Assembly: GCA_964362395.1 (NCBI GenBank)
Contig: CAYIER010000007.1
Coordinates: 5,177 to 20,840, forward strand
Direction of reading: 5' to 3'
Source: an uncultured archaeon
GTDB taxonomy: Archaea > Iainarchaeota > Iainarchaeia > Iainarchaeales > GW2011-AR10
Length of the DNA stretch: 15,664 nt
The translations under genes and the position numbers were made by a program. The notes under the pieces are model-generated. The model made no database searches, was not told where the DNA came from, and was given only the letters and a program-made list of their open reading frames with translations. Of this stretch, positions 1 through 211 are shown piece by piece (within the stretch, counting starts at the first letter, position 1; the number at the start of each line of letters is the position of its first letter).

Positions 1-192
1 TCTTGTTGACCTTGATCTTGTTGACCTTGACTTTGTTGATCGTGACCCTGACCTTGATTTAGATCTTGATCCTGACCTTGTTGATCTGCTGCTTCTGCTT
101 TTAGTAGAGCGCGCTGATCTTGACCTGCTTTTCGATCTTGACCCGCTGCTTCCGCTGCTTGAAGAACTAGACCTTCTTGATCTGCTTGTAGA
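1..192. repeat. Imperfect tandem hexanucleotide repeat array (cttgat/cttgac/gttgac units), in-frame multiples of 3
   Basis: Direct reading: repeated ttgacc/ttgatc/ctgacc hexamers across about 190 nt. Both the minus frame (RS repeats) and a plus frame (LD repeats) are open because of the repeat composition. Confidence 0.7.
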
Positions 193-195
193 CAT
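1..195 (-). CDS. Partial (window-truncated) CDS encoding an Arg/Ser-repeat (RS-dipeptide) low-complexity protein. N-terminus reads MSTSRSRRSSSSSSGSSGSRSKSRSRSARSTKSRSSRSTRSGSRSKSRSGSRSTKSRSTRSRSTR...
   Basis: ATG at 193-195 (minus). It is preceded by the SD-like GGAGGTGA at 204-211 with an 8-nt spacer. The frame stays open to the window edge. The underlying DNA is an imperfect GAYCTT hexamer array. No six-frame ORF was reported because the frame runs off the window. Confidence 0.45.
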   Translation of the reverse strand, partial: MSTSRSRRSSSSSSGSSGSRSKSRSRSARSTKSRSSRSTRSGSRSKSRSGSRSTKSRSTRSRSTR

Positions 196-203
196 TTTTG
201 TTT

Positions 204-211
204 TCACCTCC
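204..211 (-). promoter_or_regulatory. Shine-Dalgarno-like GGAGGTGA upstream of the RS-repeat ORF
   Basis: The reverse complement of tcacctcc at 204-211 lies 8 nt before the ATG at 195-193. Confidence 0.5.

What the first reader, a model, noticed from the sequence alone, without database searches (positions are those of the whole stretch)
1..211. SD+ATG-led ORF encoding a pure Arg/Ser dipeptide-repeat (RS-domain-like) N-terminus in an archaeal context
The minus strand from the ATG at 193-195 has a strong GGAGGTGA SD at ideal spacing. It encodes at least 65 residues composed only of S/R/T/K/G/A, dominated by RS, SRS and KSRS dipeptide repeats. RS domains are a eukaryotic hallmark (SR splicing factors, phosphorylated by SRPK/CLK) and I am not aware of them as a described archaeal protein class. 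Such a polycationic disordered N-terminus could be a nucleic-acid-condensing or phase-separating tail, or a kinase substrate. It is encoded by a hexanucleotide tandem array, so unit slippage would change repeat number while preserving frame. The gene continues beyond the window, so its globular part, if any, is unseen.
Basis: partly seen in the sequence, partly recalled or inferred. Interest (0 to 1): 0.8.

Follow-up and report, generated by a model that had tools for sequence, protein, structure and literature searches.

The report
Stand-alone archaeal Arg/Ser-repeat microprotein gene
The repeat is a real, complete small gene of a groundwater DPANN archaeon encoding a 74-residue, wholly disordered, strongly positive Arg/Ser-repeat protein; it is the stretched version of an unannotated family of 11-32-residue polybasic microproteins that sits next to the DNA primase gene and most likely binds nucleic acids by charge.

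Summary
ATG 195-193(-), a perfect 8-nt Shine-Dalgarno (211-204) and 65 codons using only S/R/T/K/G/A.

Overlapping metagenome contigs show the ORF stops 9 codons beyond the window. The product is therefore a complete 74-aa protein (36 S, 21 R, net +25, no acidic residue), not the N-terminus of a larger one.

It has its own conserved BRE/TATA promoter, a leader, and a hairpin plus T-tract terminator.

A second strain carries a 66-aa allele. It differs by in-frame 9-nt and 15-nt repeat-unit deletions plus two synonymous changes.

Relatives (Iainarchaeota/Diapherotrites) carry, at the same place upstream of priS and with the same promoter and SD, acid-free polybasic micro-ORFs of 11, 15, 20, 21, 27, 32 and at least 27 aa. 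Examples are MAAKKKSSSRKSSSRSKSRR and MAARKRTTKSKGRSTKRSTTRSTTRSKSRSRR.

No database recognises the family. It is not a eukaryote-type SR protein (no RRM), and it lacks the eL41 motif.

Most likely function, inferred only: an abundant, disordered polycation that binds nucleic acid electrostatically, either protamine-like or as a ribosome filler. Interest is moderate.

The parts
1..195 (-). Codons 1-65 of the RS-repeat microprotein gene. The complete ORF is 74 codons; the last 9 codons (SRSTRSRSR) and the TAA stop lie 30 nt beyond window position 1.
   Evidence: Translation. The extension comes from overlapping contigs: L001 (410 nt overlap, 1 mismatch) and L011 (9866 nt overlap, 13 mismatches, none in window 1-1599). 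The full ORF is shown.
204..211 (-). Shine-Dalgarno GGAGGTGA, 8 nt upstream of the ATG.
   Evidence: GGAGG is invariant in 7 orthologous loci (alignment A1). Most other genes in the window look leaderless and lack an SD.
196..245 (-). Inferred 5' leader of about 50 nt. It contains a conserved T-run (window 222-229 on the plus strand as A-run). The transcription start site is not mapped.
   Evidence: The T-run is invariant in alignment A1. The leader's extent is inferred from the usual 24-27 nt distance between TATA box and start site in archaea (established knowledge).
267..281 (-). BRE/TATA promoter element GCAAATGCTTAAATA, about 75 nt upstream of the ATG.
   Evidence: CAAA and TTAAATA are invariant across 7 orthologous loci. 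The divergent ATPase promoter carries the same motif at 503-514 (inverted repeat I1).
143..160 (-). Two perfect 9-nt units (AGCAGCGGR on the sense strand, encoding SSG SSG). One unit is missing in the 66-aa allele.
   Evidence: TRF; allele comparison.
1..47 (-). 15-nt units (TCAACAAGATCAAGG, encoding STRSR/STKSR). The array continues beyond the window. One unit is missing in the 66-aa allele.
   Evidence: TRF period 15, 83% matches; family D1; allele comparison.

Best explanation
Window 1-195(-) is a real, independently transcribed, monocistronic gene. It has its own BRE/TATA promoter, a leader of about 50 nt with a perfect SD, an ATG, and a stop codon embedded in a hairpin followed by a T-tract.

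It encodes a complete 74-aa protein (66 aa in a sister strain) of 8.1 kDa. The protein is acid-free, has net charge +25, and is intrinsically disordered Ser/Arg repeat throughout.

It is the repeat-expanded orthologue of a previously unannotated family of 11-32-aa polybasic microproteins. These occupy the same slot immediately upstream of priS in Iainarchaeota (DPANN) genomes. What is conserved in the family is composition (K/R plus S/T, no D/E, almost no hydrophobic residues), not sequence or length.

Shown here: gene structure, conservation, selection at the amino-acid level, growth and shrinkage by in-frame slippage of 9-nt and 15-nt units, and absence of a fold.

Inferred: the product acts as a non-sequence-specific polycation that binds and neutralises nucleic-acid phosphate. 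It would be a protamine-like or RS-domain-like counter-ion or condenser for DNA and/or RNA in an ultra-small cell. The interleaved Ser/Thr offer a possible, untested phosphorylation switch of charge.
For: Gene reality:
- Perfect SD and ATG.
- BRE/TATA, leader T-run, SD and ATG are conserved in 7 orthologous loci.
- A terminator-like hairpin plus T-tract spans the stop codon, with a counterpart in L017.
- priS has its own TTTTTAATAT box about 30 nt from its ATG in this organism, L018 and L022.

Coding constraint:
- The 36 Ser residues use both unconnected codon boxes (TCN 24, AGY 12), and Arg uses AGR and CGN.
- 16 codon types encode only 6 amino-acid types, and amino-acid entropy is lowest in this frame.
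- The preferred codons match those of the other genes in the window.
- The two alleles differ only by 3n indels and two synonymous changes.

Family:
- SD-led, acid-free polybasic ORFs of 11, 15, 20, 21, 27, 32 and at least 27 aa sit at the same position.
- In 228 kb scanned on both strands, every ORF combining an SD with this composition lies at this position and nowhere else.

Disorder: AlphaFold2 gives pLDDT 57.6, pTM 0.13 and no secondary structure.

Analogy:
- Baculovirus P6.9 is a 55-aa DNA condenser with 40% Arg and 31% Ser+Thr, and its DNA affinity is tuned by Ser/Thr phosphorylation (PMC12159748).
- Composition-only conservation with rapid length change is typical of protamines (own knowledge).
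- The organism comes from the 0.1-um filter fraction of groundwater (contig names).
Against: - No expression, binding or localisation data exist. The function is inference from composition alone.
- Basic content (34% R+K) is below true protamines (50-70% Arg). There are no Arg runs longer than two, whereas P6.9 and protamines use runs of three or more Arg as DNA anchors.
- The family is absent next to priS in several Iainarchaeota-like genomes: L002, L007-L009 and L026-L029. It is therefore dispensable there or located elsewhere.
- No gene caller predicted the complete ORF on any of the contigs that carry it. Only a contig-truncated 37-aa fragment was called, on L017.
- In-frame indels are what slippage of 9-nt and 15-nt units would give anyway, so they are weak evidence of selection.
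Confidence: 0.5

Rival explanations
1. Ribosome-bound polybasic filler. The family would be a lineage-specific small ribosomal protein that occupies an rRNA cavity, as eL41/eS32 does in archaea and eukaryotes and bS22/bL37 do in actinobacteria. The RS version would be an expanded variant.
For: - Known tiny polybasic proteins with an assigned role are mostly ribosomal. [quoted passage not shown] Its site is filled by the unrelated bS22 or mS38 in other lineages (PMC7005279; PMC5876184).
- The gene has strong expression signals: a leadered mRNA with a perfect SD in a mostly leaderless genome.
- The gene lies in a conserved block with S27e and eIF2-alpha downstream of priS-gins.
Against: - phmmer of the 27-aa and 74-aa members against all PDB chains, which include many eL41 chains, found nothing at E<=10. 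eL41 itself is readily retrieved by the same tool.
- The eL41 helix motif W-x-KKR-[IM]-RRLKR is absent.
- Length varies sevenfold (11-74 aa), length is polymorphic within the population, and the family is patchy even within the clade. All of this is atypical for a protein fitting a fixed rRNA pocket.
- A 49% Ser repeat is not helix-forming.
Confidence: 0.2
2. Translated but functionally neutral low-complexity ORF, or not translated at all. On this view the conserved element is the promoter and transcript (an sRNA), or the repeat is simply an expanding microsatellite.
For: - No gene caller predicted the complete ORF.
- No homologue is detectable by sequence.
- The family is absent in some relatives.
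- The repeats are slippage-prone.
Against: - An ATG lies 5-9 nt after GGAGG in every orthologue. All the ORFs are acid-free and polybasic, even though their nucleotide composition differs (purine-only K/R codons in some, TCN-rich in others). Glu codons are avoided in the purine-rich versions.
- Ser is drawn from both codon boxes.
- No Rfam family reaches its gathering score.
Confidence: 0.1
3. Cis-acting leader peptide (upstream ORF). Its translation through Arg/Ser/Lys codons would control read-through of the following terminator into priS-gins.
For: The ORF is always immediately upstream of priS on the same strand, and it ends in a terminator-like hairpin plus T-tract.
Against: - priS carries its own conserved TATA-like box about 30 nt from its ATG, which implies a leaderless transcript.
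- The distance from the ORF to priS varies from about 60 to about 340 nt, with unrelated repeats in between.
- ORF length varies from 11 to 74 codons.
- No attenuation of this kind is established in archaea (own knowledge).
Confidence: 0.07
4. One reading: the N-terminal RS domain of a larger protein with an unseen globular part, homologous or analogous to eukaryotic SR splicing factors.
For: RS/SR dipeptide density is comparable to RS domains.
Against: - Five independent contigs read through the stop codon 9 codons past the window, so the protein is 74 or 66 aa in total.
- The next gene is priS, with its own start and promoter.
- No RRM or any Pfam domain is present.
Confidence: 0.01
5. The repeat belongs to an opposite-strand gene (the Leu/Asp-rich 'LD' frame).
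For: The plus-strand frame is open across the region. A JGI gene caller called the equivalent antisense frame in L020.
Against: The frame is only 82 codons long, is closed by a stop at its 5' end, and has no ATG/GTG/TTG before codon 80. There is no SD. The antisense amino-acid composition is less pure.
Confidence: 0.01

Closest known systems
RS domains of eukaryotic SR splicing factors (SRSF family)
   Same: Long runs of alternating Arg-Ser. 34 of 73 dipeptide steps are RS or SR. The region is disordered and polycationic, with many potential phospho-sites. The RS/SR low-complexity class is linked to RNA binding across eukaryotes (PMC11132505).
   Different: It is a stand-alone 74-aa protein with no RRM and no other domain. 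It is found in an archaeon that has no spliceosome. There is no sequence homology. It descends from Lys/Arg-rich microproteins rather than from an RNA-binding protein.
Protamines and protamine-like proteins, especially baculovirus P6.9 (55 aa, 40% Arg, 31% Ser+Thr)
   Same: The whole protein is a small, acid-free, Arg plus Ser/Thr polycation. Composition rather than sequence is conserved, and length evolves rapidly. P6.9 condenses DNA, and Ser/Thr phosphorylation lowers its DNA affinity (PMC12159748).
   Different: Basic content is lower (28% Arg, 34% R+K) and Ser+Thr much higher (58%). There are no poly-Arg anchors of three or more residues. It is a cellular archaeal gene next to replication genes. 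DNA binding is untested.
Tiny polybasic ribosomal proteins: eL41/eS32 (25-37 aa), bS22 and bL37
   Same: The short family members (11-32 aa, for example MAKKKRKAPKRKKRR) have the same size class and charge density. They show signs of high expression. The eL41 site is known to be filled by unrelated basic peptides in different lineages (PMC7005279).
   Different: There is no eL41 motif and no detectable similarity. Length variation is extreme, and the Ser-rich repeat is incompatible with a single buried helix.

Membership tests
Eukaryotic SR proteins (SRSF) | One or two N-terminal RRM domains | tested here: not met
   The complete protein is 74 aa and is all repeat. Pfam and NCBIfam give no hit at E<=10.
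Eukaryotic SR proteins (SRSF) | RS domain of at least 50 aa with more than 40% RS/SR content (definition recalled from the SR-protein nomenclature literature; own knowledge) | tested here: met
   Among 73 dipeptide steps in 74 aa, 19 are RS and 15 are SR.
Eukaryotic SR proteins (SRSF) | Phosphorylation by SRPK/CLK kinases and a role in splicing | not testable with these tools
   No kinase gene lies in the window. Archaea lack a spliceosome (established knowledge).
Protamines / protamine-like (PL) proteins | Small (under about 100 aa), acid-free basic protein without a globular domain | tested here: met
   74 aa, 0 D/E, net charge +25. AlphaFold2 finds no structure.
Protamines / protamine-like (PL) proteins | Arg 50-70% (protamines) or Arg+Lys 35-50 mol% (PL proteins); figures from PMC12159748 | tested here: not met
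   Arg is 28% and R+K is 34%. This is below protamines and just under the PL range.
Protamines / protamine-like (PL) proteins | Clusters of three or more consecutive Arg acting as DNA anchors | tested here: not met
   The longest Arg run is RR.
Protamines / protamine-like (PL) proteins | Condenses genomic DNA in vivo | not testable with these tools
   This needs biochemistry or imaging.
Ribosomal protein eL41/eS32 | Conserved basic helix W-x-KKR-[IM]-RRLKR; length 25-37 aa | tested here: not met
   The motif is absent from all family members. phmmer against PDB chains, including eL41, finds nothing at E<=10, while eL41 queries retrieve archaeal and eukaryotic eL41.
Iainarchaeota priS-upstream polybasic microprotein family (defined here) | Position immediately upstream of priS on the same strand | tested here: met
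   L001 and L011-L016. The same position holds in L004, L005, L006, L017, L018, L019/L020 and L024/L025.
Iainarchaeota priS-upstream polybasic microprotein family (defined here) | Conserved CAAAnGnTTAAATA promoter, T-run leader, and GGAGG 5-9 nt before the ATG | tested here: met
   Alignment A1: these columns are invariant in 7 of 7 loci.
Iainarchaeota priS-upstream polybasic microprotein family (defined here) | Acid-free product with at least 30% K+R and almost no hydrophobic residues | tested here: met
   All eight SD-led ORFs of this kind in 228 kb lie at this locus.

The most novel reading that the evidence does not exclude
Iainarchaeota (DPANN) encode a dedicated, highly expressed polycationic microprotein that serves as a protamine-like or RS-domain-like nucleic-acid condenser or condensate scaffold. 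In this lineage it has been expanded by repeat slippage into a stand-alone RS-repeat protein, and Ser phosphorylation would tune its charge. That would be the first RS-type, phospho-switchable nucleic-acid-packaging protein described in a prokaryotic cell. It would have arisen independently of eukaryotic SR proteins and protamines.
Probability: 0.15. Interest if true: 0.8.

Novelty: new variant of a known kind. Interest (0 to 1): 0.5.

Why it matters
If the gene is expressed, as its signals suggest, three things follow.

1. It shows that an entire conserved class of tiny polybasic proteins is missed by standard annotation of DPANN genomes. It was not called as a complete gene on any contig examined here. 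One caller even predicted the antisense frame instead.

2. It gives a natural series, from 11 to 74 residues and from Lys-rich to Arg/Ser-repeat. The series shows how an RS-domain-like protein can arise from a microprotein by in-frame repeat slippage, and length is still polymorphic in one aquifer population.

3. It offers a testable candidate for how ultra-small archaeal cells neutralise or compact their nucleic acids, or complete their ribosomes. Chromatin and ribosome composition in these cells is essentially unknown.

If the gene is not expressed or has no function, it remains a useful caution. Low-complexity ORFs with perfect SD sites can be conserved in position without sequence homology.

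Tried and rejected
Searches that found nothing:
- An exact DNA pattern in genome contigs found nothing. The metagenome scan found L001.
- An exact look-up of the neighbouring ATPase found no record. The 74-aa and 78-aa sequences are not in the 15-billion-protein collection.
- phmmer of the 74-aa protein against 5.8 billion proteins at E<=0.001 and at E<=10 gave nothing. HMMER's composition correction makes these searches nearly blind to such sequences, so they do not prove absence.
- Pfam, NCBIfam and PDB searches of three family members at E<=10 gave nothing.
- Rfam on the locus gave three matches, all far below their gathering scores.
- AlphaFold2 found no structure.
- Literature searches for archaeal RS-rich, protamine-like or polybasic small proteins found no description of such a protein.

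Synteny:
- The first synteny scan, for ORFs with at least 60% S+R, found nothing in relatives with about 50% PriS identity. The family emerged only after lowering the ORF size limit and switching to a K+R, acid-free criterion, and after fetching closer relatives through PriS homologues.
- The relatives behind P0003 and P0039 gave contigs too short upstream to be informative.
- P0007 and P0024 loci have no room for the ORF next to priS, and none was found within the 4-kb flanks.

Rejected readings: N-terminal domain of a larger protein, antisense LD gene, eL41 orthologue, and leader peptide. Reasons are given under the rival explanations.

Full report
**1. What is in the window**

- On the minus strand, an ATG at 195-193 is preceded by GGAGGTGA (211-204) with an 8-nt spacer.
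- The frame stays open to window position 1. The 65 codons encode MSTSRSRRSSSSSSGSSGSRSKSRSRSARSTKSRSSRSTRSGSRSKSRSGSRSTKSRSTRSRSTR.
- Two other frames are also open across the repeat, so openness alone proves nothing.
- TRF finds only a weak period-6 signal (65% matches). It finds clearer 15-nt (2-47) and 9-nt (143-160) units.
- The surrounding genes are archaeal: a P-type ATPase (548-3274, +), PriL, two PCNA paralogues, RpiB, Fic, AbiEi/AbiEii, RpoL, a SpoIIM-like protein, an SPFH protein, DUF373 and LonB.

**2. Extending the gene**

- An exact 53-nt pattern was absent from the GTDB genome collection. It hit one Hainich groundwater contig, L001 (well H51, 0.1-um filter).
- L001 overlaps window 1-410 with a single intergenic mismatch and continues 4.9 kb to the left.
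- The ORF ends only 9 codons beyond the window. The complete product is 74 aa: MSTSRSRRSSSSSSGSSGSRSKSRSRSARSTKSRSSRSTRSGSRSKSRSGSRSTKSRSTRSRSTRSRSTRSRSR.
- There is therefore no globular part.
- The stop codon sits inside a hairpin (GGAGCCGCTAAACGGCTCT) followed by a long T-tract.
- About 105 nt further on, on the same strand, priS begins, followed by gins51, S27e, eIF2-alpha and PAC2.
- priS has its own TTTTTAATAT box about 30 nt before its ATG. This box is conserved in L018 and L022. The RS gene is thus a separate, monocistronic unit.
- A 27.5-kb contig (L011) is 99.87% identical to the window over 9.9 kb and has no mismatch in window 1-1599. The window's own allele is therefore the 74-aa one.

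**3. Is it coding?**

- (a) The 36 Ser residues use both unconnected codon boxes (TCN 24, AGY 12), and Arg uses AGA, AGG, CGC and CGA.
  - Sixteen codon types encode only six amino-acid types.
  - Amino-acid entropy is 1.89 bits in this frame, against 2.2-3.2 bits in the other five, at equal codon entropy.
  - This is the signature of selection on the peptide rather than on a DNA repeat.
- (b) S/T and R/K alternate far more than in shuffles: 46 of 73 steps against 29.4 +/- 3.7, with 0 of 10,000 shuffles reaching 46.
- (c) The codons used are those preferred by the other 15 genes of the window (TCA and AGC for Ser, ACA for Thr, AGG for Arg).
- (d) Seven contigs from six samples carry the locus. 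They fall into a 74-aa and a 66-aa allele.
  - The alleles differ by loss of one 9-nt unit and one 15-nt unit, plus AGC>AGT and ACT>ACA. Both substitutions are synonymous.
  - The indels are what slippage of 3n units would give anyway, so they are weak evidence on their own.
- (e) The antisense 'LD' frame is closed by a stop after 82 codons and has no start codon before codon 80. The third open frame has none before codon 95 of 107.
- (f) Most genes in the window have a TATA-like box about 30 nt from the ATG and no SD, which suggests leaderless mRNAs. The RS gene instead has a leader and a perfect 8-nt SD.
- No gene caller predicted the complete ORF on any contig that carries it, and the exact protein is absent from the 15-billion-protein collection.

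**4. Relatives**

PriS homologues place the organism among Iainarchaeota/Diapherotrites (DPANN). The best named hits are Ca. Iainarchaeum and archaeon GW2011_AR10, at 52-57% PriS identity.

The locus just upstream of priS, on the same strand, carries these ORFs:

| Locus | PriS identity | ORF product | Length |
|---|---|---|---|
| L017 | 67% | ...TSRRSSSRRKSSSSRSSSRRSRKRSSR* (contig cut; same stop-codon hairpin plus T-tract) | at least 27 aa |
| L018 | 62% | MAARKRTTKSKGRSTKRSTTRSTTRSKSRSRR | 32 aa |
| L019/L020 (AR10-like) | 57% | MAAKKKSSSRKSSSRSKSRR | 20 aa |
| L024/L025 | 57% | MAASRGGKKKTVKRKAAKRKR | 21 aa |
| L004 | 52% | MAAKRKKATHRKVKRKSHKKVHKKKRR | 27 aa |
| L006 | 48% | MAKKKRKAPKRKKRR | 15 aa |
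| L005 | 48% | MAAKKKKKKKR | 11 aa |

- An alignment of the 110 nt upstream of the ATG shows invariant CAAA, TTAAATA (BRE/TATA), a T-run, GGAGG and ATG in all seven loci.
- I scanned 228 kb of fetched sequence on both strands for ATG-ORFs of 9-100 aa with at least 30% K+R, no D/E and few hydrophobic residues. Every SD-preceded hit lies at this locus and none lies elsewhere.
- Purine-rich members avoid Glu codons, and Ser-rich members use TCN codons. The shared property is therefore the peptide's charge, not the nucleotide composition.
- The family is not found next to priS in L002, L007-L009 and L026-L029.
- In distant relatives the gene order is PCNA-PriL-(micro-ORF)-PriS. In the AR10-like clade and here, a P-type ATPase is inserted in the opposite orientation between PriL and the micro-ORF.

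**5. Properties and database status**

- The 74-aa protein has 36 S, 21 R, 7 T, 4 K, 4 G, 1 A and 1 M. Its mass is 8.08 kDa, its net charge is +25, and its calculated pI is about 12.
- AlphaFold2 finds no secondary structure (pLDDT 57.6, pTM 0.13).
- The following searches all returned nothing:
  - phmmer against 5.8 billion and 1.84 billion proteins;
  - Pfam;
  - NCBIfam;
  - PDB sequences.
- With such sequences HMMER's bias correction makes a null result uninformative about analogues. It does, however, exclude recognisable homology to any domain.
- Rfam finds nothing near a gathering score.

**6. Function (inferred)**

- A free, disordered, acid-free polycation with strong expression signals can hardly do anything but bind polyanions.
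- Two concrete versions compete: protamine-like and ribosomal.

Protamine-like version:
- The features resemble protamines and baculovirus P6.9:
  - composition-only conservation;
  - sevenfold length variation;
  - length polymorphism within the population;
  - RS/SR motifs.
- P6.9 is 55 aa, 40% Arg and 31% Ser+Thr, and its DNA affinity is lowered by Ser/Thr phosphorylation (PMC12159748).
- Against membership: Arg is only 28% (R+K 34%) and there are no Arg runs of three or more.

Ribosomal version:
- Tiny polybasic proteins are typically ribosomal (eL41/eS32, bS22, bL37).
- Against: the eL41 helix motif is absent, and no similarity is detectable although eL41 is easily retrieved with the same tool. 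The length plasticity and Ser richness also fit poorly with a fixed rRNA pocket.

I therefore favour a general nucleic-acid counter-ion or condenser role (about 0.5 including uncertainty), followed by the ribosomal rival (0.2). A leader-peptide role (0.07) is disfavoured by priS's own promoter and by the variable spacing. A non-functional ORF (0.1) is disfavoured by the conserved translation signals and the peptide-level constraints.

**7. Comparison and novelty**

- Sequence-wise the protein meets the compositional criterion of an RS domain. It fails the defining RRM architecture of SR proteins and has a different origin, namely expansion of a Lys/Arg microprotein.
- It works most plausibly like a protamine-like protein, but it fails the Arg-content and Arg-cluster criteria.
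- Full-text searches did not turn up any description of archaeal RS-repeat or protamine-like microproteins. RS/SR low-complexity domains are discussed as a eukaryotic RNA-binding class (PMC11132505).
- I rate it a new variant of a known kind (small polycationic nucleic-acid-binding proteins). It belongs to a previously unannotated, positionally conserved archaeal microprotein family.
- Interest is moderate (0.5). The gene is real and the evolutionary series is neat, but the function rests on inference from composition.

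Noticed in passing
window 300-520 (microsatellite 355-398): The intergenic region between the divergent RS-gene and ATPase promoters is C/A-rich, with an (AC)n microsatellite and several GCA/TGC-rich direct repeats. Contig L001 breaks exactly here. The window itself breaks inside the RS repeat. 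Both look like assembly breaks at repeats.
   Followed up: partly
window 267-278 and 503-514: The two divergent promoters carry the same AAYGYTTAAATA BRE/TATA motif as an inverted pair (I1). An ATTTGC-N6-GCAAAT palindrome abuts the RS-gene TATA box and could be a regulator site.
   Followed up: no
window 548-3274 (+) and 3271-4284 (-): A P-type cation ATPase is inserted in the opposite orientation between priL and the micro-ORF/priS. Its stop overlaps the PriL stop by 4 nt. The same arrangement occurs in AR10-like genomes (L019, L024), whereas more distant relatives have PCNA-PriL-PriS directly.
   Followed up: partly
window 5740-8106: A Fic-domain gene and an AbiEi/AbiEii toxin-antitoxin pair sit between two PCNA paralogues (4296-5132 and 8195-9046). 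This looks like an accessory insertion into a replication-gene cluster.
   Followed up: no
window, all gene starts: Most genes have a TATA-like box about 30 nt upstream of the start codon and no SD, suggesting mostly leaderless mRNAs. SD motifs appear only at the RS gene and at internal operon genes such as AbiEi.
   Followed up: partly
L001 2776-2973 (-) = L011 about 11800-12120: A 65-aa ORF that reads like ribosomal protein S27e (TTG start, CxxC...CxxC) is present between gins51 and eIF2-alpha, the slot where S27e is called in relatives. I did not scan it against any family library, and no gene caller predicted it on these contigs.
   Followed up: no
L020 3441-3650 (-): The JGI gene caller predicted a 69-aa antisense Leu/Asp-rich ORF overlapping the 20-aa polybasic micro-ORF. 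This is an annotation artefact of the same kind as the 'LD frame' in the window.
   Followed up: yes
L019 3700-3990 / L020 3650-3990: Between the micro-ORF terminator and priS, the AR10-like genomes carry direct repeats of about 50 nt (...CGCAAACCTCCTCGTAAAACCTTTGGTTTTGC... and ...CCCGCAAAATCTATGATTTTGCTTGGGTTTC...). Copy number differs between the two assemblies.
   Followed up: no
L023 1-19: This Logan contig begins with the Nextera adaptor sequence AGATGTGTATAAGAGACAG, i.e. untrimmed adaptor in a public assembly.
   Followed up: no
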